A stretch of 64,000 nucleotides of DNA from a virus. How positions within the stretch are numbered: position 1 is the first letter of the stretch; each line of letters begins with the position of its first letter. The position numbers and the translations under genes are program-made. Below the pieces are notes generated by a model, which worked only from the letters and a program-made list of their open reading frames with translations, made no database searches and had not been told where the DNA came from. Where the stretch lies: IMG/VR virus record IMGVR_UViG_3300022554_000002, positions 32,001-96,000 of that record; one strand, written 5' to 3'. Of the stretch, positions 23,071 through 43,295 are shown one piece after another.

Positions 23071-24111
23071 TTATTCTTCAATGATCCCATCACCAGAACC
23101 AACCATACCACAAGCAAGCATTACTTCATCCTGTGCTTCTGGTGTATTCATAATATATTCTTTAATTGCATCTTCACCAGTGAAAATATTATCTGGTTTA
23201 GTCTTAATGATCCATGAACGGGTCTTTTCCTTACCATTTTCATCTACAGGATGGCAAATAGCACCTGTGGAACGACCAAGTTCAAAAATCTCACTCTCAG
23301 TATTTATAATACCCTTGTTGTAATCAAGAACGAATTCAGCTTCACGATATGGTGCAGCAACCTTATTCTTCTTCAAGGATACTCGTACTTTATGACCAGT
23401 GATAATATCACCATTCATTACAAATGAATCTTTGTTCTGTAATCGTTCAACCTGAACCATATAATCTGAATAGTGACGAAGGTTTCGTCCATCTGGAACA
23501 ATGTAAGGATTTCGCATCTTCTTCCACTGATCCATTTCCTCATAAACATGTTGTGTAAGGACTACAGTAATATTATTAGGTTTAACCGTTGGAACGATTG
23601 TCTTAAATGCACGAGTAAGGTATCCTGCACCTGAACCGCCCATGATATTATCTGTAGTAGGCTTTTCATCCTTTGGAAATCGAATAGCCCTAACAGAGTC
23701 AATACAAATACATTTAACAGGCAAACCAGCAGCAATCTTCTCCTTGAGTGTAGTATCTACCCAATCAAAGATTTCTGTAGGATTATTTGTCTGTTTTATC
23801 ACTAATCGTTCAGGGTCACCACCAAGTTTAGCAAACCATTCCTTGGAAAGTGAGAATTCAGTATCGAAAAGAATACAAATCCCATCTGGGTATTTCTTCT
23901 GAATCTCAGCCATAAGTATCTGAGCAATCAGAGATTTACCACCAGATTCAGGACCAAATAAAAGAACCCACTTTCCCTCAACAACACCACCATTTCCAAC
24001 AGCCCAATTGCAACTAGGGCTAGGTAGAGGAATCGCAGAAGCTTTAAGTTCCGGCAATTCACTCGCAAGTTTAAATCCTTCTTTCGCAAAAAAGCTCATC
24101 CAATCTGACAT
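23071..24111 (-). CDS. recA: RecA/UvsX recombinase
   Basis: GPESGGKS, LFDTEFS, IDSVRAI, PDGRNLRHYSD and KNKVAAPYREAEF. Confidence 0.93.
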   Translation of the reverse strand: MSDWMSFFAKEGFKLASELPELKASAIPLPSPSCNWAVGNGGVVEGKWVLLFGPESGGKSLIAQILMAEIQKKYPDGICILFDTEFSLSKEWFAKLGGDPERLVIKQTNNPTEIFDWVDTTLKEKIAAGLPVKCICIDSVRAIRFPKDEKPTTDNIMGGSGAGYLTRAFKTIVPTVKPNNITVVLTQHVYEEMDQWKKMRNPYIVPDGRNLRHYSDYMVQVERLQNKDSFVMNGDIITGHKVRVSLKKNKVAAPYREAEFVLDYNKGIINTESEIFELGRSTGAICHPVDENGKEKTRSWIIKTKPDNIFTGEDAIKEYIMNTPEAQDEVMLACGMVGSGDGIIEE

Positions 24112-25629: not shown

Positions 25630-25657
25630 ATTATAAAGGTACCACGCTATCTGTCAA
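25630..25657 (-). promoter_or_regulatory. Sigma70-type promoter TTGACA-N16-TATAAT
   Basis: Perfect hexamers upstream of the SSB gene. Confidence 0.8.
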
Positions 25658-28329
25658 GTAGGTATTTTCCAACTTTCATTCTCTTTCGTAACCACCTTAC
25701 AAGAACCTAATTTATATCCAAGCTTAATCTCAAACTCCATAGGAATTGTTAGTCCAACAGGGTGTAACATGATACTTTCCATTGTATTAAACAACTGTAT
25801 GGCATGATCTTTTCTAACTTCACCAACAATTGAGTCATGTACGAATGATACATATTTTGCATCAATGTTTAATTCTTTACATTTATTACGAATTTTCAAA
25901 GCACTAAGCAGTGTATAGTCACTGGCCTGTGCTTGAATAATAAAATTCACACCTTGTCGTTCAGCTTCACCACGTTCATGTTTATTTTCAGCAATTAAAT
26001 TGGCTAAACGACGCTTACGACCAAAATATGTAATAAATGTATTATTATTAGCAAGAGCAATTTTAACCTGCTCCTGTTGCCAACGTTTTACTCCCTTATA
26101 TGTATTCCAATATACATCATAAATGTGTTTTGCATCAGCTTCTTGTATGTTATTTTCCTTAGCAAAATTGCCCCACCACTTACCATAACACAAAGAGAAG
26201 TTTGCAGTCTTACCATTCTGACGTTCTTCTTTTGTAACTGCCTTCTTAGCATTGAAATTAGGATCATTGTCCATCTGATCTACTAACTCAGGATGGTAAA
26301 TGCGTACCGCCAACATAGCATGTGGGTCTAACCCGTTCATAAATGCTTTGTACAGATTTTCATCACGGGAATATTCTGCAATTAGTCGTAATTCTGCCTG
26401 ACTATAATCAACTTCAAATAAATAATAATCATCCGGTCTGGAACATGAATATAAATCACGAACCACAACCCCAATATCCTTCAATAAAGGGGTACCACGT
26501 GTTAAATTCTGTAAATTAGGGTTAGATGAAGATAATCTACCTGTTTCTGTACCATTGGGGTGAAAACTTGAGTGCACTTTGCCATCACTATAAATATTCT
26601 TAGTAATTCCTTCAAAATATGTACTTAAAGCCTTGGCATACTTACGACGAGTTAATACTTTCTTTGGAACAGGATGTAATGCTGCTAATTTTTCCAATAC
26701 TTCTTCAGTTACAGCCGGATCATTCTTCTCTGTTCGATCTAATATTGGTAAATTGGCATATTCGTATAAATACTTACTCAACTGAATGTTAGAAGTGAAT
26801 TTAACTGGTGCAGGTACATCTCCATCCTTTGGAATCATGGTATACTGTTCTAAATCTTTATCAATATCAACAATTGCCTGCTTTAATCTTGTTATACATT
26901 CTTGTCGATATTTTTCATCAATATAAAAACCTGTTTCCTCAACATCTAACAACATCCAACTAACAGGCATAAGGAAATTGACCAATAAATTATGCATATT
27001 CTCTTTTATAACTTCTGGCATCAACTTCAAGTAAACCTGTAGAGTAGCATCGGCGTCTGTACCAGCATACTTCACCAAAACATCTGGCGGAATAATGGCA
27101 AATGAATCAGATTTCTTCTCAGTTTTCTTTAAACCACAACTTGGTAAGGAATCTTCATAATTACCATATTCAGTGTACCGTTTAGCCAAATCCTTCAAAC
27201 CATGAATACCAACTCGTTCATCTAAACAGTAACTAGCCATCATAGTATCAATTACTGAACCACGATCAAACTCAAATCCAGCTTTGTGTAATAATTTAAC
27301 ATCGAACTTGAAATTATGAAAAATCTTTATCTGGCTTGATGATTTGAACAATTTGGCTAATCGTTCTTTTACATCTGTACCAACCCACTTATAAGTTGGC
27401 ATATTCAAACGATTCTCACTAACGAATGCCTTTATATCATCAGCATATGCTTTTCGTTTTGTCTGTAAATAATTCCTACAAAATTCATAATAAGCATCAT
27501 CACCGACACACCAAGGCAAAACATATGAATAATTGGGCTTACAACTAAAGGCAATCATGATAATAAAATCGTCAATGAAATCCAACCCAGATGTTTCAAT
27601 ATCTATTGACAACCTTGTGCTTTGCTCAAACTCCTTCATCATAGCGTCAAACTTCTCATAAGTATCAACGTAAGTTACATTACTATAAGAGTTTGTAGCG
27701 TTACCACTAAGAACAGACTTGATAACTTTCAATGCATAAACTGTCTTTTCAGTATTACGAATATCTCTAAGAACATATGAAGGATGGAAACATGGTATAA
27801 TCTTTACGTTGGGATAATCAGGAGACTCCATAACAGTGCCGTTAAGTTTAGTAATACCACTTTTCTTACCAGTAATACGTTTTAATGCTGTGGCACCCAA
27901 CGGAACTATAATCTTTGGGTTAGCATCCTTAATGGCTCTTTCTACAATATGGAAACAGGCTTTTTCTTCATCACTTGTTGCTTCTCTATTGTTTGGAGGA
28001 CGACACTGAACCACATTAGCTATGGAACAAACATTTCGATCAATACCTGCCATTTGTAATAATTCATCGAACTTCTGACCTGTTCTACCAATTAAAGGCT
28101 CAGTTCCAAACTGATCCTCTGTTTCTTCAGGAGCATCTGAAATAAACAATATGTCACAATTTGGAATAATCTTTGGTGGAACCACATGACAACGATTAAC
28201 TGCAAGAGGACAACGAGTACAACCACGAAGATCAAAAGTCAACCAATCAATATCATCAACTGGTCGATCATCTTTCTTTTTCTTCTTCGTTTTAGGTGCT
28301 AAATCTGGTAAATCCATATTACTCGTCAT
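25654..28329 (-). CDS. polA: Family A DNA polymerase with N-terminal family-4 uracil-DNA glycosylase-like domain and 3'-5' exonuclease
   Basis: UDG: CTRC, CRPPNNR, FHPSYVLR. Exo: DIETSG, HNFKFD, YAGTDA. Pol: TGRLSS, DYSQAELR, KTANF..YG, VHDS. Start may be ATG 28317. Confidence 0.93.
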   Translation of the reverse strand: MTSNMDLPDLAPKTKKKKKDDRPVDDIDWLTFDLRGCTRCPLAVNRCHVVPPKIIPNCDILFISDAPEETEDQFGTEPLIGRTGQKFDELLQMAGIDRNVCSIANVVQCRPPNNREATSDEEKACFHIVERAIKDANPKIIVPLGATALKRITGKKSGITKLNGTVMESPDYPNVKIIPCFHPSYVLRDIRNTEKTVYALKVIKSVLSGNATNSYSNVTYVDTYEKFDAMMKEFEQSTRLSIDIETSGLDFIDDFIIMIAFSCKPNYSYVLPWCVGDDAYYEFCRNYLQTKRKAYADDIKAFVSENRLNMPTYKWVGTDVKERLAKLFKSSSQIKIFHNFKFDVKLLHKAGFEFDRGSVIDTMMASYCLDERVGIHGLKDLAKRYTEYGNYEDSLPSCGLKKTEKKSDSFAIIPPDVLVKYAGTDADATLQVYLKLMPEVIKENMHNLLVNFLMPVSWMLLDVEETGFYIDEKYRQECITRLKQAIVDIDKDLEQYTMIPKDGDVPAPVKFTSNIQLSKYLYEYANLPILDRTEKNDPAVTEEVLEKLAALHPVPKKVLTRRKYAKALSTYFEGITKNIYSDGKVHSSFHPNGTETGRLSSSNPNLQNLTRGTPLLKDIGVVVRDLYSCSRPDDYYLFEVDYSQAELRLIAEYSRDENLYKAFMNGLDPHAMLAVRIYHPELVDQMDNDPNFNAKKAVTKEERQNGKTANFSLCYGKWWGNFAKENNIQEADAKHIYDVYWNTYKGVKRWQQEQVKIALANNNTFITYFGRKRRLANLIAENKHERGEAERQGVNFIIQAQASDYTLLSALKIRNKCKELNIDAKYVSFVHDSIVGEVRKDHAIQLFNTMESIMLHPVGLTIPMEFEIKLGYKLGSCKVVTKENESWKIPT

Positions 28330-30850: not shown

Positions 30851-31258
30851 TTAACTAGCTCTAGTTCCAGTATACAGCTTGGGCTTCTCTTTAATATTAA
30901 ACTTTTCCTTCAACTTCTCAATAGCTTCCTGCACTTCCTCAAAATCAATTTCCTGTTCATCAAGAGAATCACCATCGGAACTAACGTCTGCAACAATGTA
31001 CCCCACTAAATCATCACCACCATCAATAACCAAGTATTTAATATTCTTAATACCAAAATCATAATTATACAAAAATTCATGCCAAGTATCCTCTACACCA
31101 TATTTTTCTAAATTCTTAATAACATAATCACTACCATGCTCTTCAATAAACTTTCGTTGCTCATCCTCAGACTCAGGCAATACCTTACTTGCCTTGAATC
31201 CAAAGACCACAAACGAACTACTAGAACTGTTACTCACGAAACCATTACGAATCTTCAT
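30851..31258 (-). CDS. Hypothetical protein, MKIRNGFVSNSSSSSF family (copy 3)
   Basis: Conserved N-terminal motif; acidic body. Confidence 0.85.
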   Translation of the reverse strand: MKIRNGFVSNSSSSSFVVFGFKASKVLPESEDEQRKFIEEHGSDYVIKNLEKYGVEDTWHEFLYNYDFGIKNIKYLVIDGGDDLVGYIVADVSSDGDSLDEQEIDFEEVQEAIEKLKEKFNIKEKPKLYTGTRAS

Positions 31259-31270
31259 AGCTATTCTCCT

Positions 31271-31579
31271 TTATCCATCATACCAAGATTCTTCATATGT
31301 TTTACAGGCAGGAACAGGTTTGTCTTTAAATACTTCCTTTAACTTCTCTTCAACACTCTTCTTAAACATGGCACCTGTTTCATCATCTTTAACAGAAGAC
31401 CATGACCGACCAATATAGGTAGCATAATCCTGTTGATGGATTTCTAAACCTTCAATATAAGCATCGCCATACTTATCCTGTGGTAAAAATGATAAGTCTG
31501 CATCTTCATCCAAATGAATACCAAAAATACAAAAACTACTGGAACTACTGTTACTGACAAAACCATTACGAATCTTCAT
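31271..31579 (-). CDS. Hypothetical protein, MKIRNGFVSNSSSSSF family (copy 2)
   Basis: Conserved N-terminal motif. Confidence 0.85.
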   Translation of the reverse strand: MKIRNGFVSNSSSSSFCIFGIHLDEDADLSFLPQDKYGDAYIEGLEIHQQDYATYIGRSWSSVKDDETGAMFKKSVEEKLKEVFKDKPVPACKTYEESWYDG

Positions 31580-31592
31580 TTCTGTTCTCCTT

Positions 31593-32024
31593 TTAGGTAT
31601 ATGTACTATCTACGTAAACGCTATCACCACCAATTTCTTTTAAACTCTCAACAAAGTTTTTAAAAGCACACTCTAAACTAAATTTAGAAATAACTTCAGC
31701 GTCTCTCCACGCACGACAACCACACTCAGGACAATATTTAATATCTCCTTCTGGTAATTTATGGTCACAACCCCTTACTTTTGGTTGTTTTTCATTATAC
31801 TTCCACGCAACAGTATGAAAAGAGTTTTTATAACTATCTCCTGTGGTAATCATCATAAGAACTAGCTTCTCACCACAAAATGTAAATTCCTGCTCACAAG
31901 CAGAAACAGCTAGACGTTCTTCCTCAGTACAAGTAGCCTTTGCTGCTTCTAATGTTTTCTTTTTTACAATAACTACAAAGGAACTTGAGCTACTGTTACT
32001 GACAAAGCCTTGTCTAGTCTTCAT
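31593..32024 (-). CDS. Hypothetical protein, MKTRQGFVSNSSSSSF family (copy 1) with zinc ribbon
   Basis: N-terminal motif; CDH...YCPECG. Confidence 0.85.
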   Translation of the reverse strand: MKTRQGFVSNSSSSSFVVIVKKKTLEAAKATCTEEERLAVSACEQEFTFCGEKLVLMMITTGDSYKNSFHTVAWKYNEKQPKVRGCDHKLPEGDIKYCPECGCRAWRDAEVISKFSLECAFKNFVESLKEIGGDSVYVDSTYT

Positions 32025-34096: not shown

Positions 34097-34408
34097 TTAC
34101 TTATAAATAGCAAGATAAACTGTTTCTTTGGAACAACCCACAATATCGGCAACCTTTTCCGCATCAGAATATATACTATAAAGACTCCTAATTCGTTCAC
34201 GTGAAAACTTCTTTGGCCACGGCCTATTAATATAAACTGTTTCTTTAGTGCATTCTTTTGGTCGTGGCAAACCAGCTTTTGCCATTTGAATCAGAACAGA
34301 CTTCATCTTTCGAGTTTTCCACGCCTTGACTGCTGCATCATGCCTAGCCTGCTTCTTGCGACGAATCGTAACCCATGCCTTCTTTGCTGCTTTTTGCATC
34401 TTTGTCAT
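34097..34408 (-). CDS. Basic protein with AAxKAWxTR repeats, half repeat MAKAGLPRP and C-terminal HTH
   Basis: AAKKAWVTIRR / AAVKAWKTRK; AEKVADIVGCSKETVY is HTH-like. Confidence 0.7.
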   Translation of the reverse strand: MTKMQKAAKKAWVTIRRKKQARHDAAVKAWKTRKMKSVLIQMAKAGLPRPKECTKETVYINRPWPKKFSRERIRSLYSIYSDAEKVADIVGCSKETVYLAIYK

Positions 34409-34433: not shown

Positions 34434-34461
34434 ATTATACAAGCAACTCTTGAAATGTCAA
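34434..34461 (-). promoter_or_regulatory. Sigma70-type promoter TTGACA-N16-TATAAT
   Basis: Perfect hexamers. Confidence 0.8.
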
Positions 34462-35177
34462 GCACAAAATTTTGCTACAGTTGTGATAAATTCAGTTCTC
34501 CTATTATCGTTTTTCGATATATAGGACTTACTGAACAATTCACATGGTAGCACATGTCCCGATTGTTTAATTGCTGCTGCTAGATATATCTCTGTTGGCA
34601 ATGATAGGTTAGTATGTAACCCGGAAATTTTTGCCTGTTGTAATAACTGCTTATTAATCTCACATGTATCATGGTGACTACGACCTCTTCCAAAAGTCAG
34701 AATCATGGTAGAGGTAAGATTTAGCATGTTTGCTTCAAGAATCTTAAGAATACCATGTTTGTAATGATTTTCATAGTCAGGTTGTGATAGAAAGTCAAGG
34801 TAGATCAAATCAAATGGTTGCCCATCAGACTGCCAATAGGCTTCATCCAGCGCACGTGAGAGGGGTTCTGGATGCTCTGTAGTCTTCATGCCTTTAAGGA
34901 TTTGACGGTCTGGATGCTGGCATAGTTTGATTTCCTTATGCACATCGTAGGAATCATTGTGCTGCTCTACAGAGTTATCTTCGATTGCAAAGAGGTTAGA
35001 GGCTGGAACACCATTCTCCACTAGATAAAATGCCTCATGCCCAAATAGATTAGGCATCAGTAGTGCTCTGAAATTCTTAGAGAGTGATAAAGATTCTAGA
35101 ATAGGGTGTAGAATCTTATCCTTCTCTTTACAGAAGGTATCACGAGACTTACGAGATTTACTAAATAATGTTTGCAT
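34458..35177 (-). CDS. Putative class I SAM-dependent methyltransferase-like protein
   Basis: Rossmann-like order: ALLMPNLFGHE, LFAIED, FDLIYLDF, MILTF. Confidence 0.5.
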   Translation of the reverse strand: MQTLFSKSRKSRDTFCKEKDKILHPILESLSLSKNFRALLMPNLFGHEAFYLVENGVPASNLFAIEDNSVEQHNDSYDVHKEIKLCQHPDRQILKGMKTTEHPEPLSRALDEAYWQSDGQPFDLIYLDFLSQPDYENHYKHGILKILEANMLNLTSTMILTFGRGRSHHDTCEINKQLLQQAKISGLHTNLSLPTEIYLAAAIKQSGHVLPCELFSKSYISKNDNRRTEFITTVAKFCA

Positions 35178-35185
35178 TATTTAAA

Positions 35186-35734
35186 TTATATTTTTTCTGG
35201 TAAAATATTAGGATAAGGAACACCTACATTACTTGGATGTATATTTCCAAAAGATGCAATACATTTTGGACAACCGCACATTAATTGTGCAATACAATCG
35301 TTACTTTCCAAACTTATAGGTTTTATTTTTGCTTGCCAATTACCTACTATTAAATCTACACCAACACATAAAGGTAAAATTTGTGCAACGTGGGCCACTT
35401 TTGGGTCAGAAGTTTCTGACAAAAAAGTTTGTACTTTTTTTGCTTCTTGAAGACCCCTAGTAATGGGACACTTTCCTTTAGGTATTCGTCTAGATATACA
35501 TAGAAAAAAATGTTTATATAAATCATATCCTAATTCTGAAACAATGGAATTCCTAATTTTTATCAGTTGCTCTGTGATTTCTTTTTGTTTTGTTTTATTT
35601 TCAAAACAATTTTCTAACAGTAATTTATGCTGCTCACAAAAAGTAAGCAGGGGGATAAAGTGCTCAAAAATATCTCCTTTTTCAATACTATGTATAAGTT
35701 TTGAATTTTCTTTAAGCCAAGGAAAGCGATTCAT
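35186..35734 (-). CDS. Hypothetical protein
   Basis: 182-aa ORF, Cys-rich. Confidence 0.65.
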   Translation of the reverse strand: MNRFPWLKENSKLIHSIEKGDIFEHFIPLLTFCEQHKLLLENCFENKTKQKEITEQLIKIRNSIVSELGYDLYKHFFLCISRRIPKGKCPITRGLQEAKKVQTFLSETSDPKVAHVAQILPLCVGVDLIVGNWQAKIKPISLESNDCIAQLMCGCPKCIASFGNIHPSNVGVPYPNILPEKI

Positions 35735-35749
35735 TATTTTTCCTCCTGT

Positions 35750-36715
35750 TTAACTAAAAAACTTGCCATCCCATTTCCAATTAGGTAATTCTTCTAATAG
35801 CTTAATTCTTTCTAGTGTCATTTTACCTCTCCCAAAACCTTTTTTACTTTTTCGTTGTGTACTAATCCATAAACCCAAACTTTTCTCTATTATATCTTTA
35901 GATTCTTTGCTTGGATATTTTTTATTAGTTTTAATAAATTTTTTTAATTCATTATATTTATTAAACCATTTTTCATTTAAATCCAATTCCCACCGCCAAT
36001 TAAATAACTGTTCAAGTAATTTAATTCTTTGTCTTATTAATTTATTCTTTTTCTTCATACTGCGTTGAGTATTAATCCACGTATAAAGTTTGTTTTCTTT
36101 TTTATTTTGTGTAGGAAATCTGCTATTAACTTTAATGAACTGTTTTAATTCATTATATTTAATATTCCAAATTTTATCTAAATCTAATTCCCATTGCCAA
36201 TTAGGTAATGATTCCAACAATTTAATTCTCTCCCTTGTTAAGTTATTACGCATTTGTCCTTTTTTAGCAGCCCGTTGATTTGAAATCCAATACAAAATTT
36301 TTATTTCTTTTTTATCTTTAGAAGCATAAGTAGGATACCTATTATTAATATTAATAAATTCTTTTAATTCATTGTATTTTTCATTCCAAATATCATCTTT
36401 TGTAAAAAACCAATCAGGTCTTATTTGTTTAATAATATTAACAAAGTTTTTGTCTCTAAGCATATATTGATATAGAGCGCAACCTAAAGCAGTAGTCATT
36501 TTTGGTTTTTCTTTTCCATTTTTAGCCAATTCAAGTATTTTTTCTCTTTGGATATTAGCTTTATCAAATTGTGTAATAAACCAATCAGGTCTTATTTGTT
36601 TAATAATATTAACAAAGTTTTTATCATAGCACGGACTATTCATACTAATATAAGCACTAAACCTACTGCCTAATATATCATTTTTATTTGGGCGTTTCGT
36701 TCCTTTTTTAGCCAT
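35750..36715 (-). CDS. Two unnamed ~57-aa repeats plus three helicase-associated (HA, PF03457-like) repeats
   Basis: 3x W..KYNELK.F......P......L..W...QR.....RIKLLE.L.NW.W; N-terminal RPDWF repeats. Confidence 0.85.
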   Translation of the reverse strand: MAKKGTKRPNKNDILGSRFSAYISMNSPCYDKNFVNIIKQIRPDWFITQFDKANIQREKILELAKNGKEKPKMTTALGCALYQYMLRDKNFVNIIKQIRPDWFFTKDDIWNEKYNELKEFININNRYPTYASKDKKEIKILYWISNQRAAKKGQMRNNLTRERIKLLESLPNWQWELDLDKIWNIKYNELKQFIKVNSRFPTQNKKENKLYTWINTQRSMKKKNKLIRQRIKLLEQLFNWRWELDLNEKWFNKYNELKKFIKTNKKYPSKESKDIIEKSLGLWISTQRKSKKGFGRGKMTLERIKLLEELPNWKWDGKFFS

Positions 36716-36727
36716 TTCAATAAGTTT

Positions 36728-37111
36728 TTACTTGTTGATTTCAACGCTGTCTTCAAACCAAGCTGGTTGTTTATTTTTAATTTTTTTTGTAAATTCTAAA
36801 TCAAATTGTGCTTTTTTAGGGTTTGTATAACAGCATAAAGCAGACCCAAGTACACTGGTTACATCTGGTTTTTGAGACTCTTTAGGCATATTTAATAGTT
36901 CATTTTTCTTTTCATTAACTTTATCATATTGTGTTATAAACCAATCTGCCCTAAGTTGTTTAAGATTATTAGTAAAATGTTCATCATACATTGCTGAGTT
37001 CTTATTAGTATAAGAAAAAAGATTATGTAAAAACTTTCCTGTAGTATACTTCTCCCATATCTTATCCTTTATGGCTTGCTCAATCTGCTTTTCATCTTCC
37101 CAAAGTTCCAT
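36728..37111 (-). CDS. Repeat protein (2 copies of the YD..F...P.WF repeat)
   Basis: N-terminus MELWEDEKQIEQAIKDKIWEKYT is nearly identical to the next gene. Confidence 0.8.
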   Translation of the reverse strand: MELWEDEKQIEQAIKDKIWEKYTTGKFLHNLFSYTNKNSAMYDEHFTNNLKQLRADWFITQYDKVNEKKNELLNMPKESQKPDVTSVLGSALCCYTNPKKAQFDLEFTKKIKNKQPAWFEDSVEINK

Positions 37112-37113
37112 AA

Positions 37114-37872
37114 TTACTTACTCCTAAACCATTGTGGTGCCAACTTACGAATCTCAATATCAAATTGCTCGTCATAAGATTTACTAGTCTTACACGTATA
37201 ATTAGCCAAAAAAGAATGTAGTTTTTTCTCAGTTACATAATTAGGTCGAGATTCTTTATTTATTGCACGTCGTAGCAATTCCTGCTGTGCTTGATTACCT
37301 TCAAATGATTTGCCTTTAAGAAACCAATCAGGACGTACTGCCCGAAGTTCAGTTTCAAAAGTGGGAAAAAATCCCTTCCTAGATAGATGAAAATATGAAT
37401 AAATAAGATGCTTCTGCTTTTTATCTGGCTTTGGTTCTCCGTTTTTTGCCATTTGTAAAAACTGCTCTCTATTTTGTGCTCCTGTATCTTTTTGTCTAAT
37501 AAGCCATGAGGGATTAATTTTACGAATAGTATTTACAAAGTTAACATCATATTCTCCCTCTCGTTTGCGAGTATAACGATAAAAAGCTTCAGTGAGTTTA
37601 TTCCTTTTACCATTACTATCTTCAGATTTTGGTTTTGAATTACCATTTTTTGCCAAGGCTATAAGTTTCTTTTTATTTACTCGTGCACTATAACCAGCAA
37701 ACCATTCTGGACTTAACCTTTTTAACACCTTTTTAAAATTAACATCATAACAAAAATGTGAAGAAGATAAATAATGGTCCAAAACTCTACTTAATTGTTT
37801 TTCTGTATATTTTTCCCAAATTTTATCCTTTACAGCTTGTTCAATTTGTTTAGGGTCTTCCCAAAGTTCCAT
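37114..37872 (-). CDS. Repeat protein (4 copies of the LAK.G..KP...YD..F...P.WF repeat)
   Basis: Internal repeats ending SPEWF, NPSWL, RPDWF and APQWF. Confidence 0.8.
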   Translation of the reverse strand: MELWEDPKQIEQAVKDKIWEKYTEKQLSRVLDHYLSSSHFCYDVNFKKVLKRLSPEWFAGYSARVNKKKLIALAKNGNSKPKSEDSNGKRNKLTEAFYRYTRKREGEYDVNFVNTIRKINPSWLIRQKDTGAQNREQFLQMAKNGEPKPDKKQKHLIYSYFHLSRKGFFPTFETELRAVRPDWFLKGKSFEGNQAQQELLRRAINKESRPNYVTEKKLHSFLANYTCKTSKSYDEQFDIEIRKLAPQWFRSK

Positions 37873-37874
37873 AA

Positions 37875-39425
37875 TTACTTACCCTTACATTTATAAGAAG
37901 GTCTTGGAAGTCCTGCCTTAGCCATTGCAATCAAGGCAAGTTTCTTCATTTCTGCATCCCTATCCTCTACACCACTTTCCTTCCTAATCCAAGCCTCATA
38001 ATTTTCCATACCAAGAGAAGTAATGTCAAATCCATCCCTATTAGCAAAAATATTACCATCTTTACCAATCTTAGGACGATTAGAACCACCACGTTGTGCA
38101 ATAGTTCTAATTCCGCAACAAAGCCTCATAACCCTAGTACGCATCACCTGATAATCAATAAACACTGCTTCACGTTTAACCAGACAACAATCAGCATCAG
38201 TTTCAGATGGCAACCTCATAACACGTCCAAGAGCCTGTAGCAACTTATTCTCAGACTTAATTCGTGCAATACAATGACAATACTTCAATCGTGGAATGTT
38301 AATCGACTCCACACCCAACATCACTGTAACAAAGCCAATACACTCACCAGAATTTAATTTCTGTTGAATTGCTTCGCGTTCTTTTGGAGGAATTCCATCA
38401 ATACCTAATTTCTTATCACCTGAAACGTAAGCAATAAATCCTTCGTATCCAAGACGCTTATTTAGAATATTACAAAGGTCCGTTGCTTCGCTTTGACGTG
38501 ACACAAATACAGCATGTCCAGCAGGTTTCTTAGCTCCCCGCTCCTTAGCACTCTCTTCTTCCAACTTAACTGTCTTCAAAATTCCATCAGCACACAAATC
38601 AAGATATTTAAGTAGCTTCTTTCGTGCCATTCGTAACAAAACCATTTCACTACGATTAACAATCTCTTCATCATTAACTTTAATATCAATTGGAACACTC
38701 ATACCATACAGTGAAGACAAAGAGCCTTCCAGAATCAACTGTTGAGCAGTAACCTTAATATCTGGTGTGTGTTGCCCAAAGGGTGCCTTACCATCTGCAC
38801 GTCCATAAGTGCCTGTAACCGCCAAAACGTGTGCACCTTGTGTCATTGCCTTCTTACGAATAATCTTTTCAACTTTTCCAATAATTGCAGTTTCGTTTTC
38901 AGGGTCATGTGGAATACGGTGAACTTCATCAATGATAACAAGTCCAGCCTGTCCCAATGCTCCACTAATTACTACATCTGAAGCACCCTTAACAACGTCA
39001 TAAGGTGTAACAATGTAAACCATTGCATTCGGTGGGAATAGTTCCATACTCGTATTATATCGTGCATAAATGTACGATTCTGGAAGAATTCCCATGTGTT
39101 GGGTCAGAACACGCTTAAACTCCTTAACGAAGTGCACCATAGCATCACGTTTAGGAGAAATGAATACAACTCGTTTACCATCCTTAAGATAAGGAAGTGC
39201 AGCAGTAGCAGTAAGAATAGTCTTACCACCAGCACAGTAAATCTCTGCACCTACAAGTTGTTGCTTATTAAGGAGTTCTGGCAATTGGTTAACAACCGTT
39301 TGCTGGAATCCACGAAGAACAATAGGCTTATTCTCAGGAGTCCAAGGGTTTATAAGGTGATTATGCTCTAATACCTTATAAAGACAGTCAAAACTCTTAT
39401 CCGTCTGTGTTTGAATAGTTTCCAT
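37875..39425 (-). CDS. Superfamily II helicase (type III restriction Res/DEAD-like)
   Basis: LRGFQ, YCAGGKT, IIDEVH, VTGTYGRADG, GVESINIPRL and QALGRVMR; ends in a half repeat MAKAGLPRP. Confidence 0.88.
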   Translation of the reverse strand: METIQTQTDKSFDCLYKVLEHNHLINPWTPENKPIVLRGFQQTVVNQLPELLNKQQLVGAEIYCAGGKTILTATAALPYLKDGKRVVFISPKRDAMVHFVKEFKRVLTQHMGILPESYIYARYNTSMELFPPNAMVYIVTPYDVVKGASDVVISGALGQAGLVIIDEVHRIPHDPENETAIIGKVEKIIRKKAMTQGAHVLAVTGTYGRADGKAPFGQHTPDIKVTAQQLILEGSLSSLYGMSVPIDIKVNDEEIVNRSEMVLLRMARKKLLKYLDLCADGILKTVKLEEESAKERGAKKPAGHAVFVSRQSEATDLCNILNKRLGYEGFIAYVSGDKKLGIDGIPPKEREAIQQKLNSGECIGFVTVMLGVESINIPRLKYCHCIARIKSENKLLQALGRVMRLPSETDADCCLVKREAVFIDYQVMRTRVMRLCCGIRTIAQRGGSNRPKIGKDGNIFANRDGFDITSLGMENYEAWIRKESGVEDRDAEMKKLALIAMAKAGLPRPSYKCKGK

Positions 39426-39446
39426 AAATAACCCTTTCTACTTAGT

Positions 39447-39475
39447 ATTATAATAAGAAGCTAAGGAATTGTCAA
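39447..39475 (-). promoter_or_regulatory. Sigma70-type promoter TTGACA-N17-TATAAT
   Basis: Perfect hexamers upstream of the SF2 helicase. Confidence 0.8.
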
Positions 39476-40836
39476 GAAGAAAATGCAAGCTTTCTAGCAT
39501 AGCTATCATAATCAGCTTGACTTGGATTATAGAATAGCATTCGATTATAATCTGTATGAATGGTATAGGTATAACCGCAAGCCTGATCACGATATGCATC
39601 CAAATAAATTCGCATTTTATTGGCTTTCTTTTCAGCGTCAGTTACATTTAATGTAGCCAAAAGATCAGCAACACGTACTTTACTATAACAGTCAGCCAAA
39701 TTTTGCCTTGTGTAGACGAAATTTTCATCAATTCTAGGATTCGACCCCATTGGTGCACGTGTAACCTGTGAAGCAGTCCACATCACCACATTATATGTAT
39801 TGGCAATGGTTTTCAAATCCCGATAAACCGACTGCTGATCCAAATATGTATTACCTTCTCCACCCTTTCTTGGAGTTAGCAAATCACCATAGTCTACAAT
39901 CACCAAATCAGGTTTAAAGTTATATTTTGCAAGATTATCCAACTCTTCTACAATGTGCAATGGAGTCCTATCAAAATCCAACATATTACAAACTACCAAT
40001 GAATTACCATACTTCTCATAATTCCTATATGCTTCCTGTGGAATGGCATTATGAACTACATCAGTATAAGATTGTAACAGGAATCGTGAATCGTAACGAT
40101 CATCCGTCTGTCCATCACGTCCCTCAAGATTAATATGCAATACTTTATAATTTCCATGATATCGCATACAAACATAAGCACCAACATTCATAAGGAAAAT
40201 AGACTTACCAACTTTGGCATCTGCAACAACGACACCCATTTCGCCTTTGGCTAGTCCACCACCTGTCTGACTGTCTAATGGGAATACACCCATTTCAATA
40301 CGTTCTACACCCTGTTCAAAACAACTTCTACGAGTAATACGTTTTTGAATGTCATTAAAAAAGAATGTTCGTTTTGGTGGTTCCAAGCTTACTTTGTTAC
40401 ACACGTCAATAACCTCCTGATTAGTTGTTAGTGCACCATCAATGTCATTCTTTTCATACTGGGACTTAATCTTGTCGTATCCCCGAACGAAAATATGACG
40501 TTTTATGAATCGTGTCAAATTGTCCAACAAGTATTCTTTGTCTGTACTGCTGTCAATGTCCCTAACTTCCTTCAGAACCGTAATATACTGTGGCCATTGA
40601 TCCTGTGGAAGTGTTTCCTGAATGAAATTAATATAAACATCAATTGTGATACCCTTATCATATTTTTTGTAATATTCTACCATCTTCTTATAAATCCACT
40701 GAAGCTGTTCAGTGTCAAAGAATTGTGGTTTAGCATGTTCAATAATTCGACCTAACATTAATGGATCATTTAACAACAAATTGAGTAACTTCTTTTGAAA
40801 CTCAATACCAAATGGAAAACGTTCTTCTTCTGCCAT
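39472..40836 (-). CDS. dnaB: Replicative DnaB-like helicase
   Basis: GGLAKGE, ADAKVGKS, INLE, VIVDYGDLL, WTASQVTR and KVRVAD. Confidence 0.9.
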   Translation of the reverse strand: MAEEERFPFGIEFQKKLLNLLLNDPLMLGRIIEHAKPQFFDTEQLQWIYKKMVEYYKKYDKGITIDVYINFIQETLPQDQWPQYITVLKEVRDIDSSTDKEYLLDNLTRFIKRHIFVRGYDKIKSQYEKNDIDGALTTNQEVIDVCNKVSLEPPKRTFFFNDIQKRITRRSCFEQGVERIEMGVFPLDSQTGGGLAKGEMGVVVADAKVGKSIFLMNVGAYVCMRYHGNYKVLHINLEGRDGQTDDRYDSRFLLQSYTDVVHNAIPQEAYRNYEKYGNSLVVCNMLDFDRTPLHIVEELDNLAKYNFKPDLVIVDYGDLLTPRKGGEGNTYLDQQSVYRDLKTIANTYNVVMWTASQVTRAPMGSNPRIDENFVYTRQNLADCYSKVRVADLLATLNVTDAEKKANKMRIYLDAYRDQACGYTYTIHTDYNRMLFYNPSQADYDSYARKLAFSS

Positions 40837-41230: not shown

Positions 41231-41532
41231 TAATTAGACTCTCCTGCAAGCCACTCTGGTACGTCCACCATATCTACTACTGTACCTTTTTTATCATGCC
41301 AGCAATCACCACAATAATGAATCTTACCCTTAGTCATAATTAAATGACACCTGCTTGATGCATGATTCTGATTACACAACAAAGATGGTGTAAATGTTGG
41401 TAATTCCATATTTCCATCAAAAATCCAAGGTGGAGTAGTGTAAGCATGAGCCTCATTACAACCGGGACACCAGAACCAAAATTGATACCCCTCTTTGTCT
41501 CCGTCCTTAAAATGATGTTTTACTATTTTCAC
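41230..41532 (-). CDS. Cys/His metal-binding protein, DUF6527-like
   Basis: WCPGCNEAH...W.FDGN..PTFTPSLL...CHLIMTKGKI.YCGDCWH. Confidence 0.65.
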   Translation of the reverse strand: MKIVKHHFKDGDKEGYQFWFWCPGCNEAHAYTTPPWIFDGNMELPTFTPSLLCNQNHASSRCHLIMTKGKIHYCGDCWHDKKGTVVDMVDVPEWLAGESN

Positions 41533-43295
41533 TTCTTACTACCTTTCAACACACTAAGAAAATCTTCTGTCTCAATCAACTCTTCATCAGGATTCACAAC
41601 CTGATTCACAAAGCTTTCTTTTCTCTCTAACAGTTTACGAACCCATTCATCTACCGTGTCCTCACAGTTAAGTACAATCAGGGTTGACGTACCTTTTGCA
41701 TCACGTCTTTGAATTCTTCCTCTCGATTGTGTTAGAGTTAGAAGAGACAACGGTTCATCTAAGTAGATAGCCGTTCTAGCTATACCCAAATTTGAACTGG
41801 CAGAGATTTCATCGTCTAAAATACTTGCGAGAATCCTACAACCTGACTTGGGATTTATAAAATCTTCAATATTCTTACTTCTCTGCTGCATTGTAAGACC
41901 ATTCGCAATACCGGCATTCAAAGCAGCACCATAACCCTCTGAATACTTGTTAACTACCATATCCAATGCTGGTCTAAATGAAGACCACACTATCACCTTC
42001 TGCTTTTTATCATCTAGAATCTCAGATAACAAAGCATCTAACGCTTCAAACTTTGCTGACTTCTGTGTTTCACCTAATAAGAATGGATGAACTAAATACT
42101 GTCTCAACCGTAAAGTCTTGGTAATAATAGAGTTAAGGTGTAATGCCTTCTCTGGATTTGCAGCTATTTCCTTGTATGTTTCTTCCTTAATTCTATCATA
42201 TACTGCACGTTGTTCCTCACCAAGTTCTGTCTTATGAATAGTCAACATCGTTTCAGGGAAACCTTCAACGTCATCGTGTGTTTTTCTAAAAGTCCACATA
42301 TCTACCAAATACTTTAATTGTTCAAGATTCTTGTAACCTTTAATAATCGGTACTTTCTGTCTTCGGCCTTTTGGCTTGATTAAAATCTTCTTACAAAAGT
42401 AATTTTCAAACCGTGTCTTCGCTGGAACCACCAAAGGATTCAAAATCTTAAGAATACTATAGACTTCAATTGGTCGTTCAGCTACCGGAGTACCTGTCAA
42501 TGCATAACGGTACTTTGGTTTCCACGAATCTACAATTGCATGTATAGCCTCTGACCGTTTAGCATTCATATTCCTAAAGATATGTGCTTCATCTAAAACT
42601 ACAAAGTTGATCGGCAGTGCACACAAAGAACCTACAACCAACTCAGACAACAAACAATCGTAGTGTACAACCAGAAGGTCTTGAGTAAAGTTGTCAATGT
42701 CTTCCATCACCTTCTCAGTACCATTACGAATAATCTTATAGGTGTAATTAGTGTGCTTTATAATCTCGTTCTTCCAAGTCAGCTTACCATTATTGGTTAC
42801 AAAGATAATACCTGCTGCCACCTTTTTCTGATTATGTAAGATATTGTACGCTGACAATGCTGATAATGTCTTACCAATGCCGACTGAACAGGCATTAATA
42901 CCCTGTTCACGAAACAATAGGAAAGAAGTAGCTGACTTCTGATCAAAGAATGGTACTGATCTTAAATTAGGATTAATCTGGTCATTATACTTACCATTTT
43001 TGTAATTATCTATCTCTGATCGTAAAACAATATACTTCTTACAAATATCCAATGCCATATCTGAATAATTAAAATTAATCGGAACATTGGAAGTATTTAA
43101 CAAACTACGAAGAATGAAAAAATCACAAATAGAAGATGTATACTTTCCATCCCTACCGATTTTGAAAGTCAACAATCCCTGCAACATGGCAAGGATTGTT
43201 GGACTATCATGCTGCTCCTGTTGATATGTAATGGTACAATGTTCAGGAGAAACTATGAATTGTTGTATTTCCTGCTTAATATCAATAATCATCAA
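41529..43295 (-). CDS. SNF2-family helicase
   Basis: VGIGKT, VVLDEAH, ALTGTPV, KVIVWS, NLGIA and QSRGRIQR. Confidence 0.9.
   Translation of the reverse strand: MMIIDIKQEIQQFIVSPEHCTITYQQEQHDSPTILAMLQGLLTFKIGRDGKYTSSICDFFILRSLLNTSNVPINFNYSDMALDICKKYIVLRSEIDNYKNGKYNDQINPNLRSVPFFDQKSATSFLLFREQGINACSVGIGKTLSALSAYNILHNQKKVAAGIIFVTNNGKLTWKNEIIKHTNYTYKIIRNGTEKVMEDIDNFTQDLLVVHYDCLLSELVVGSLCALPINFVVLDEAHIFRNMNAKRSEAIHAIVDSWKPKYRYALTGTPVAERPIEVYSILKILNPLVVPAKTRFENYFCKKILIKPKGRRQKVPIIKGYKNLEQLKYLVDMWTFRKTHDDVEGFPETMLTIHKTELGEEQRAVYDRIKEETYKEIAANPEKALHLNSIITKTLRLRQYLVHPFLLGETQKSAKFEALDALLSEILDDKKQKVIVWSSFRPALDMVVNKYSEGYGAALNAGIANGLTMQQRSKNIEDFINPKSGCRILASILDDEISASSNLGIARTAIYLDEPLSLLTLTQSRGRIQRRDAKGTSTLIVLNCEDTVDEWVRKLLERKESFVNQVVNPDEELIETEDFLSVLKGSKK

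What the first reader, a model, noticed from the sequence alone, without database searches (positions are those of the whole stretch)
34458..39475. Candidate new system: SF2 helicase + stand-alone arrays of an unnamed ~57-aa repeat + HA repeats + methyltransferase-like gene
Seen: one promoter (39447-39475) drives the helicase (atypical Walker A YCAGGKT), then three repeat proteins, a Cys-rich ORF and an MTase-like ORF. By hand alignment, the repeat K..L..MAK.G..(K/R)P.....L..AL..Y......YD..F...I(R/K)...P.WF occurs 8 times (2+2+4, the first copy in each gene lacking the N-terminal half). A half copy ends the helicase. Known: HA repeats (PF03457) normally form the C-terminal tail of such helicases and are thought to bind nucleic acid. 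Here they and the new repeat are split off as separate genes. Inference: a helicase with interchangeable in-trans recognition subunits plus a modifier. This resembles a restriction/modification, anti-defence or phage-competition module. No nuclease motif was found.
Basis: partly seen in the sequence, partly recalled or inferred. Interest (0 to 1): 0.75.

Follow-up and report, generated by a model that had tools for sequence, protein, structure and literature searches.

The report
Phage helicase with detached repeat-array tails
In a 194-kb uncultivated phage, one operon encodes a DNA/RNA motor, separate genes made of a previously unnamed ~60-residue three-helix repeat (plus known HA repeats), and a methyltransferase-fold enzyme; in related phages the motor and the repeats form one protein, so they very probably work together.

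Summary
A perfect sigma-70 promoter (39475-39447) precedes six minus-strand ORFs:
- a DExH SF2 helicase
- three repeat ORFs
- an orphan Cys-rich ORF
- a class-I methyltransferase-fold gene

The next perfect promoter follows at 34461-34434.

The ~60-aa repeat is real, with 4+2+2 copies, plus a half copy at the helicase C-terminus and another in the next small gene. It has no Pfam or NCBIfam model. It defines a family of about 1,200 protein clusters, almost all from large uncultivated phages.

About one in five of the best 150 hits are longer than 700 aa. Eight of the nine longest I scanned carry an N-terminal SF2 helicase. The rest are stand-alone arrays, which sat beside an SF2 helicase in most of the loci I examined.

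Orthologous helicases (35-64% identity) occur both fused and split. The split ones stop exactly after the first helix of repeat 1. That tail is under strong purifying selection: 35 identical residues against 16 synonymous changes.

One caveat: two of the "three" repeat genes are one reading frame cut by a single TAA.

The defence/R-M reading has no support; the operon sits in the replication module. In-trans docking is plausible but untested, because the complex predictor was unavailable. The scan earlier found an analogous HA-repeat module in another huge phage.

The parts
39447..39475 (-). Perfect sigma-70 consensus promoter of the operon
   Evidence: 12/12 match. Ten such sites in the window, all on the minus strand, against 0.13 expected.
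37875..39425 (-). DExH SF2 helicase, 516 aa
   Evidence: Pfam DEAD, ResIII and Helicase_C match; phrog_16 matches. Motifs I, II, III and VI are conserved in alignment A6. Orthologues at 35-64% identity.
37884..37958 (-). Helicase C-terminal tail: first helix plus the (K/R)P loop of repeat 1 (profile positions 6-30)
   Evidence: HMM hit. The tail aligns to the start of repeat 1 in fused orthologue P0134. 35 residues are identical to L011 despite 16 synonymous changes.
37114..37872 (-). rep252: conserved 23-aa leader, one half repeat and three full repeats of the new ~60-aa module
   Evidence: HMM hits. AF2 model has pLDDT 86 with three helices per repeat. pI 9.8. dN/dS 0.49 against L011.
36728..37111 (-). 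rep127: same leader, one half repeat and one full repeat; ends at an in-frame TAA (36728-36730)
   Evidence: The stop/start junction is identical to the helicase|rep252 junction.
36407..36715 (-). HA321 N-terminal part: two copies of the new repeat; the first lacks most of its first helix because of the TAA just upstream
35771..36406 (-). HA321 C-terminal part: three HA repeats (PF03457)
   Evidence: Pfam E 4.7e-29 with 3 stretches; repeat boundaries.
35186..35734 (-). cys182: orphan ORF with 9 Cys; not a conserved member of the module
   Evidence: No family hit in Pfam, PHROGs, NCBIfam or PADLOC. No BLAST relative in the syntenic loci. The Atlas gave nothing usable.
34458..35177 (-). mt239: class I SAM-methyltransferase-fold protein, last gene of the operon
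   Evidence: AF2 pLDDT 86.5, pTM 0.87. Foldseek returned at least 500 PDB hits at E<=1e-3; nearly all of the listed top 50 are methyltransferases. VIA Z 14.7 to RlmO, 14.3 to PH1915, about 14 to COMT and about 13 to RsmD-like chains. Eleven homologues at 45-77% identity. dN/dS 0.08.
34434..34461 (-). Next perfect sigma-70 promoter; marks the end of the operon
34097..34408 (-). hth103: small basic protein in the next transcription unit. It carries the same half repeat as the helicase tail (residues 31-55) and a weak HTH_7 match
   Evidence: HMM hit. Pfam HTH_7 E 3e-4, below the curated cut-off. The L011 orthologue carries two such half repeats.

Best explanation
This is an accessory nucleic-acid-handling module of a large phage. 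It lies inside the replication/recombination gene block.

The motor is a DExH SF2 helicase or translocase. Its substrate-binding tail is an array of basic ~60-residue three-helix repeats (a new family) together with HA repeats. In relatives this tail is part of the helicase polypeptide. Here it is encoded as separate, co-transcribed and translationally coupled genes.

I infer that the arrays bind nucleic acid, most likely DNA. I also infer that the variable outer face of their second helix contributes specificity, and that they act together with the motor.

The motor keeps a strongly conserved C-terminal peptide, which is the first helix and the (K/R)P loop of repeat 1. That peptide is the most likely handle for re-association with array proteins.

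The co-transcribed class-I methyltransferase-fold enzyme probably modifies the nucleic acid that the motor engages.

Shown: the parts, their homology, the fused and split forms, selection, and co-transcription signals. Inferred: nucleic-acid binding, physical association, and methylation of the shared substrate.
For: Extent of the repeat family:
- 1,203 representative proteins at E<=1e-3, of which 502 at E<=1e-30.
- 28 of the best 150 are 712-1241 aa; 26 of these carry the repeats at the C-terminus.
- Eight of the nine long proteins scanned have ResIII, DEAD or Helicase_C domains at the N-terminus.

Stand-alone arrays lie directly after an SF2 helicase in several unrelated helicase lineages:
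- L004, a 618-kb contig
- L006/L009
- L011
- L012/L013
- L017/L018
- L029
(HMM maps).

Orthologous helicases:
- Six split forms of 504-535 aa carry the half-repeat tail.
- Fused forms are P0174 (781 aa), P0177 (814 aa) and P0134 (765 aa).
- The split helicases end exactly where repeat 1 of P0134 continues.

Selection:
- The tail has 0 non-synonymous and 16 synonymous differences over 35 codons against L011.
- dN/dS is 0.26 for the helicase, 0.19-0.49 for the arrays and 0.08 for the MTase-fold gene.
- One unsaturated array pair gives 0.23 at dS 0.16.

Array properties:
- pI 9.5-10.
- Three helices per repeat in the AF2 model.
- Across 889 repeats the core positions are invariant.
- Positions 26, 27, 33, 36, 37 and 40 are the most variable; positions 33, 36, 37 and 40 form one face of helix 2.

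The HA domain, which co-occurs with the repeat in the same polypeptide here, in L011, in L029 and (weakly, below Pfam's cut-off) in P0002, has a solved structure (2kta). That structure is reported to bind DNA (cited in PMC12191111).

Operon: perfect promoters bracket the six ORFs, and the stop/start junctions have 2-nt gaps.

MTase fold. The same gene family ends the operon in L011, L012/13 and L029. An unrelated N6_Mtase sits in that position in L004.

Context: SNF2, DnaB_C, UDG-exo-PolA and RecA genes flank the operon. L011 keeps the DnaB-helicase order.
Against: No biochemical property was tested. Nucleic-acid binding is inferred from charge, context and analogy with HA.

The new repeat shows no profile-level homology to HA (hhalign probability below 1%). 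The structural match to 2kta (Z 4.0, 63 residues aligned) is tied with generic three-helix bundles.

In this window the arrays next to the helicase carry a leader that the model folds as a degenerate first helix. They may therefore not need the helicase tail. The only truly headless repeat here (HA321) is headless because of a nonsense codon.

The methyltransferase-fold protein has a degenerate glycine-rich motif and matches no Pfam model, so its catalytic competence is unproven.

Some array loci (L006/L009) have no methyltransferase gene.
Confidence: 0.55

Rival explanations
1. Decay: the locus is a fused helicase-array gene that has broken into pieces. The pieces are remnants on their way to loss.
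For: Fused orthologues exist. rep127 and HA321 are one frame cut by a single TAA, with no Shine-Dalgarno sequence before the downstream ATG. In L011 and L029 the equivalent leader-to-HA gene is uninterrupted.
Against: The helicase|array split is shared by at least six orthologues at 45-63% identity and by a non-orthologous helicase lineage (L017/18), at the same loop. The tail has 0 non-synonymous and 16 synonymous changes. Array dN/dS is 0.19-0.49. The array leaders are conserved at the protein level despite 18 differences in 75 nt between the paralogues.
Confidence: 0.12
2. A restriction-modification-like, anti-defence or inter-phage competition module. A ResIII-type translocase is targeted by variable recognition arrays and paired with a protective or offensive methyltransferase.
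For: The helicase matches ResIII. Its best sequence hit among solved structures is a 953-aa putative helicase, 7clg. The arrays diverge far faster than the motor: L006 against L009 shows 96% identity for the helicase and 55-59% for two arrays. A methyltransferase-type gene recurs, including a true N6_Mtase in L004.
Against: No nuclease domain was found in any of the six proteins. PADLOC gave only a weak partial PbeA match to the helicase C-domain. The operon lies within the replication block, and DnaB-helicase synteny is conserved. The family is phage-borne rather than carried on host defence islands: the motif scan found 3 MAG contigs against 7 large viral contigs.
Confidence: 0.15
3. An RNA-directed module: a DExH RNA helicase with RNA-binding repeat arrays and an RNA methyltransferase, acting on host or phage RNA.
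For: The closest structural neighbours of mt239 are rRNA m5C methyltransferases of the RlmO/RlmI type (Z 14.2-14.7) and RsmD-like enzymes (Z about 13). DExH helicases include many RNA helicases (one search lists SLH1 and Brr2).
Against: COMT-type small-molecule methyltransferases score the same, at Z about 14. The only solved relative of the co-occurring HA repeats is reported as DNA-binding. The neighbours are DNA replication genes.
Confidence: 0.13

Closest known systems
SF2 helicases with C-terminal HA repeats (Pfam PF03457; solved HA domain 2kta of Bacteroides vulgatus BVU_0683)
   Same: Tandem three-helix modules of about 60-70 residues follow an SF2 helicase core. HA repeats are present in the same polypeptide as the new repeat (HA321, L011_4549, and weakly P0002), or in the adjacent gene (L029). 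The model of one new repeat superposes on 2kta over 63 residues (Z 4.0).
   Different: The new repeat matches no Pfam model, and hhalign finds no relation to HA. Its signature is different: invariant K, (K/R)P, Y, YD, F and a terminal P-x-W-F. Here the arrays are separate genes.
Phage T4 UvsW helicase and its small trihelical partner UvsW.1 (described in PMC7824862; Kerr et al. 2007 is cited there and in PMC5180179)
   Same: A phage SF2 helicase in the recombination/replication block has a small helical putative DNA-binding protein encoded immediately downstream.
   Different: No sequence relation was detected: UvsW is not among the PDB hits of the helicase profile, and tblastn against 50,697 phage records found nothing. 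Here the partner is a multi-repeat array, present in several paralogous genes, with a methyltransferase-fold gene attached.
Helicase + methyltransferase-fold + stand-alone HA-repeat gene module noted earlier by this scan in a 528-kb salt-lake phage (e1-5401905, e1-5401914; AI notes)
   Same: The same three kinds of component are present, relatives are fused in the same way, and the same idea applies that array proteins plug into an unfinished domain at the helicase end.
   Different: That module uses canonical HA repeats. This one uses mainly a different, unnamed repeat family. I did not compare the two loci directly.
Type I/III restriction-modification and SauUSI-like translocases
   Same: A ResIII/DExH motor is combined with a methyltransferase-type gene.
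   Different: There is no nuclease, no recognisable Mod/TRD or HsdS, and no PADLOC system match. The module is carried by a phage, inside its replication genes.

Membership tests
HA domain (PF03457) | Match to the Pfam HA model above its gathering score | tested here: met
   This holds only for residues 104-315 of HA321: 100.9 bits against a cut-off of 28.4, in 3 stretches.
HA domain (PF03457), asked of the new ~60-aa repeat | Sequence-profile relation to HA | tested here: not met
   rep252, rep127 and seven canonical array proteins gave no Pfam HA hit. The exception is the N-terminal HA remnant of P0002. hhalign of 23 or 889 new repeats against 3 or 9 HA repeats gave probability below 1%.
HA domain (PF03457), asked of the new ~60-aa repeat | Three-helix fold like 2kta | tested here: inconclusive
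   2kta scored Z 4.0, rmsd 3.5 A, with 63 of 74 residues aligned to repeat 4. It ranked 16th of 48,161 chains and is tied with generic helical bundles.
HA-type architecture | Tandem array C-terminal to an SF2 helicase core | tested here: met
   26 of the 28 proteins of 712-1241 aa among the best 150 hits carry 4-10 repeats that run to the C-terminus. Eight of the nine scanned have ResIII, DEAD or Helicase_C at the N-terminus.
SF2 (DExH) helicase | Two RecA-like domains with motifs I, II (DExH), III and VI | tested here: met
   DEAD scored 34.7 bits, ResIII 34.6 and Helicase_C 29.1, all above their cut-offs. AGGKT, DEVH, TGT and QALGRVMR are invariant or near-invariant in A6.
Class I SAM-dependent methyltransferase | Rossmann-like seven-strand MTase fold | tested here: met
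   pTM 0.87. At least 500 Foldseek hits at E<=1e-3, nearly all of the listed ones methyltransferases. Z 14.7 with 176 residues aligned to RlmO.
Class I SAM-dependent methyltransferase | Intact SAM-binding motifs and catalytic activity | tested here: inconclusive
   The acidic residue after strand 2 (E66) and D128 in the strand-4 motif are invariant. The glycine-rich motif I keeps only one Gly. No Pfam model matches. No cofactor docking was run.
Restriction-modification or known defence system | Nuclease plus cognate methyltransferase or specificity subunit; match to defence-system models | tested here: not met
   No nuclease family was found in any ORF. PADLOC gave only a partial PbeA match to the helicase (E 4.9e-6) and a marginal GajB match to hth103.
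T4 UvsW / UvsW.1 pair | Sequence homology to UvsW (A18/UvsW family) | tested here: inconclusive
   UvsW is not listed among the 44 PDB hits of the helicase profile at E<=1. tblastn found no match in GenBank phages. No fold comparison of the helicase was run.

The most novel reading that the evidence does not exclude
The new repeat could be a modular nucleic-acid recognition unit, with specificity set by the hypervariable outer face of helix 2 (profile positions 33, 36, 37 and 40, plus 26 and 27). Large phages would then keep several alternative arrays that snap onto one motor by completing a repeat that is split between the helicase tail (helix 1) and the array N-terminus (helices 2-3). That would amount to an exchangeable, programmable targeting system for a translocase and its methyltransferase.
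Probability: 0.15. Interest if true: 0.85.

Novelty: new variant of a known kind. Interest (0 to 1): 0.55.

Why it matters
If the reading holds, it has four consequences.

- It adds a second large family to the poorly understood helicase-associated repeats. The family has about 1,200 clusters at 50% identity, sits on or beside SF2 motors, and is essentially confined to big uncultivated phages.
- It shows that motor and tail are repeatedly separated at one precise loop, with the orphan helix kept under selection. This is a natural case of a protein split inside a repeat, and it makes a docking mechanism directly testable.
- Arrays that evolve much faster than their motor, with variability concentrated on one helix face, are candidates for sequence- or structure-specific nucleic-acid readers.
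- The recurrent methyltransferase-fold partner hints at a motor-coupled modification activity in large phages.

None of these points is yet shown biochemically.

Tried and rejected
- Complex prediction (helicase tail with array N-terminus): the first job was lost on the remote machine. The docking idea is therefore untested.
- The search for related loci with single proteins found nothing in IMG/VR. With alignments A4 and A2 it could not build patterns.
- blastn of the locus, and tblastn of the helicase and of a canonical array, against 50,697 GenBank phage records: no match.
- Foldseek of the whole rep252 model against PDB: nothing at E<=1e-3. The all-against-all VIA search gave only Z<=4.7.
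- hhalign of the new repeat against HA: no signal.
- phmmer of mt239 and of the helicase against PDB sequences: nothing.
- hhalign of the mt239 family against the 238-aa gene that ends the L017 locus, and against the L004 N6_Mtase: no relation. Pfam also finds nothing in the L017 gene. The MTase position in L004 is therefore analogous, not homologous, and the L017 gene is unassigned.
- BLASTP of the window helicase against the L004 and L009 helicases: no significant similarity.
- cys182: no family, no relatives and no usable Atlas hit. I dropped it as a conserved component.
- Stop-codon recoding as an explanation of the in-frame TAA: rejected. TAA is the commonest stop of long ORFs (30 of 46) and ends the neighbouring genes.
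- Programmed frameshift joining helicase and array: rejected as a general mechanism. The spacing and the relative frame of the two ORFs are not conserved across L011, L012, L018 and L029.


Full report
**Source and context**

The window is bases 32001-96000 of a 194,473-bp IMG/VR virus record with direct terminal repeats. All long ORFs are on the minus strand. GC content is about 35%.

The operon lies inside the DNA replication/recombination block:
- SNF2-type ATPase, 41529-43295
- DUF6527 protein
- DnaB_C helicase, 39472-40836
- the operon itself
- UDG-exonuclease-PolA, 25654-28329
- RecA, 23071-24111

**Transcription unit**

A 12/12 sigma-70 consensus site lies at 39475-39447, and the next at 34461-34434. 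Ten perfect sites occur in the window, all on the minus strand, against 0.13 expected. These are real phage promoters, and they bracket six ORFs.

The helicase|rep252 and rep252|rep127 junctions share the same sequence: stop codon, two bases, then ATG. This points to translational coupling and to duplication of the whole cassette.

**The parts**

- The 516-aa protein is a DExH SF2 helicase. Pfam DEAD, ResIII and Helicase_C all score above their cut-offs, and phrog_16 matches at E 7e-34.
- rep252, rep127 and the first 103 residues of HA321 have no Pfam, NCBIfam or convincing PHROG match.
- HA321 residues 104-315 are three HA repeats (PF03457, E 4.7e-29).
- cys182 is an orphan.
- mt239 has no Pfam match. 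Modelled with 11 homologues, it gives pLDDT 86.5 and pTM 0.87.
  - Foldseek returns at least 500 PDB hits at E<=1e-3, and nearly all of the listed ones are methyltransferases.
  - VIA-align gives Z 14.7 to RlmO, Z 14.2-14.4 to RlmI-type enzymes, Z about 14 to COMT and Z about 13 to RsmD-like enzymes.
  - The fold is settled. The substrate class is not.

**The repeat is real**

An alignment of the eight copies and a 62-position profile from 23 copies give these HMM hits:
- rep252, four times
- rep127, twice
- HA321, twice
- the last 25 residues of the helicase, as a half copy at profile positions 6-30
- the small protein of the next transcription unit, 34097-34408, also as a half copy

The repeat occurs nowhere else in the 194-kb genome.

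The AF2 model of rep252 has pLDDT 86 and shows three helices per repeat. The arrays are very basic, with pI 9.5-10.

**A correction to the gene count**

rep127 and HA321 are in the same frame and are separated by a single TAA (36728-36730). The four codons between that stop and the HA321 ATG complete the first helix of a repeat. An earlier first-stage note, e1-5804541, pointed me to this.

In relatives L011 and L029, the gene that runs from the leader through to the HA repeats is uninterrupted. TAA is the normal stop codon here. This junction is therefore most simply a nonsense allele, an assembly error, or a termination-reinitiation site. I could not check the reads.

**Size and spread of the family**

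A profile search of 1.84 billion representative proteins found 1,203 proteins at E<=1e-3 and 502 at E<=1e-30.

Of the best 150 hits, 28 are 712-1241 aa, and 26 of these carry 4-10 repeats that run to the C-terminus. Eight of the nine I scanned have ResIII, DEAD or Helicase_C at the N-terminus. The remaining hits are stand-alone arrays of 250-560 aa. About a quarter of those begin with a half repeat.

An exact scan for the coding pattern of one conserved nine-residue motif found 7 IMG/VR contigs of 28-234 kb. It found only 3 MAG contigs among 185,579 species genomes. No GenBank phage record matches.

The family therefore belongs to large uncultivated phages.

**Conserved neighbourhood**

| Locus | Gene order |
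|---|---|
| L004 (618-kb contig) | SF2 helicase, two six-repeat arrays, an N6_Mtase |
| L006/L009 | 727-aa helicase-like protein, three arrays with a shared leader |
| L011 | DnaB, orthologous helicase (64%), five small genes (three with repeats, one also with an HA repeat), mt239 homologue (77%), later a vWA gene |
| L012/L013 | orthologous helicase (44.5%), three arrays, mt239 homologue (47%) |
| L029 | helicase (62%), one array, an HA gene, mt239 homologue (74%) |
| L017/L018 | non-orthologous SF2 helicase, two arrays, an unassigned 238-aa gene |

**Fused or split**

Among orthologues of this helicase:
- Six proteins are 504-535 aa.
- Three are fused to arrays: P0174 (781 aa), P0177 (814 aa) and P0134 (765 aa).
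- One, P0172, is fused to a different repeat.

In alignment A6 the split helicases stop a few residues after the R-P-S of repeat 1, exactly where P0134 continues into helices 2 and 3.

In L011, L012, L018 and L029, the gene after the helicase starts directly with helices 2-3. The unrelated L017/18 helicase has the same kind of tail. Helicases whose arrays start with full repeats (L004, L009) have no such tail.

The frames and spacers at these junctions differ between lineages, so I rejected a programmed frameshift as the link.

**Selection**

Between the window and L011, the 35 tail residues are identical although 16 of the 105 nucleotides differ.

| Gene | dN/dS (NG86) |
|---|---|
| helicase | 0.26 |
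| rep252 | 0.49 |
| HA321 | 0.19 |
| mt239 | 0.08 |

dS is saturated in these comparisons. An unsaturated array pair (L006/L009, dS 0.16) gives 0.23.

In that same pair of phages the helicase is 96% identical, while two of the three arrays are only 55-59% identical. Arrays therefore evolve, or are exchanged, much faster than the motor.

**Pattern within the repeat**

Across 889 full repeats from 172 proteins:
- Near-invariant positions are K11, L14, A18, G21, (R/K)24, P25, L31, G32, L35, Y38, Y46, D47, F50, I54, P59, W61 and F62.
- The highest entropy is at positions 26, 27, 33, 36, 37, 40 and 44.

Positions 33, 36, 37 and 40 have helical periodicity opposite to the L31/L35/Y38 core face of helix 2 in the model. 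This fits a recognition surface, but it is an inference.

**Relation to HA**

The new repeat occupies the architectural position of HA and co-occurs with it in single polypeptides. hhalign finds no relation between them.

The solved HA domain 2kta aligns over 63 residues at Z 4.0. That score is no better than generic three-helix bundles. 2kta is cited as DNA-binding in PMC12191111; I could not read the primary paper.

I therefore treat the repeat as a distinct family that works like HA. I do not treat it as a member of PF03457.

**Mechanism**

The best-supported reading is a motor whose nucleic-acid-binding tail has been detached into separate genes. The tail, the motor and a methyltransferase-fold enzyme are co-expressed within the replication block.

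The conserved orphan helix on the helicase suggests re-association by completing a split repeat. A conserved leader or a half repeat on the arrays points the same way.

In this window that idea is weaker than in L011, L012 and L018. rep252 and rep127 carry a leader that the model folds as a substitute first helix. HA321 is headless only because of the TAA. I could not run the complex prediction.

T4 UvsW with its trihelical partner UvsW.1 (PMC7824862) is a functional precedent, although no homology was detected.

The scan's earlier notes on a 528-kb phage (e1-5401905, e1-5401914) describe the same kind of module built from canonical HA repeats. They are leads, not evidence.

**Verdict**

There is no support for a defence or R-M role. 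I rate it a new variant of a known kind.

Noticed in passing
window 5865-57963 (ten sites): There are ten perfect TTGACA-N16-18-TATAAT promoters, all on the minus strand, against 0.13 expected. Several share TTGACA(A/T)(A/T)T and a TG(T) just before the -10 hexamer. This looks like a phage promoter class that uses the host sigma-70.
   Followed up: partly
window 30851-32024: Three consecutive small ORFs (135, 102 and 143 aa) downstream of a vWA-like gene start with nearly the same 16-residue serine-rich leader, but their bodies are otherwise dissimilar. An earlier first-stage note, e1-5804535, also recorded this.
   Followed up: no
P0172 (orthologue of the helicase, 855 aa): This 48%-identical orthologue carries a different C-terminal repeat with a G-W-x-S-W-x-D-F-L-G signature in place of the new repeat. 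The helicase clade therefore swaps kinds of tail repeat.
   Followed up: no
L006 vs L009: Two closely related phages have 96%-identical 727-aa helicase-like proteins, yet their first and third array genes are only 55% and 59% identical. The second array gene is 92% identical. This suggests cassette exchange or rapid divergence of the arrays.
   Followed up: partly
window 34097-34408 and L012:7498-7674, L011:7817-8125: The small basic proteins after the operon share repeated K-A-W-x-T-R-(R/K) motifs at the N-terminus. The window and L011 copies also carry the helicase-tail half repeat.
   Followed up: no
window 25654-28329: The polymerase is a UDG-domain, 3'-5' exonuclease and family A polymerase fusion. 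That could matter for what the methyltransferase-fold protein acts on.
   Followed up: no
L029:1961-2155: The 190-nt 'gap' after the L029 helicase is an open frame that encodes helices 2-3 of a repeat. It is continuous with the called 266-aa array gene, so that gene probably starts earlier, possibly at a TTG, than it was called.
   Followed up: partly
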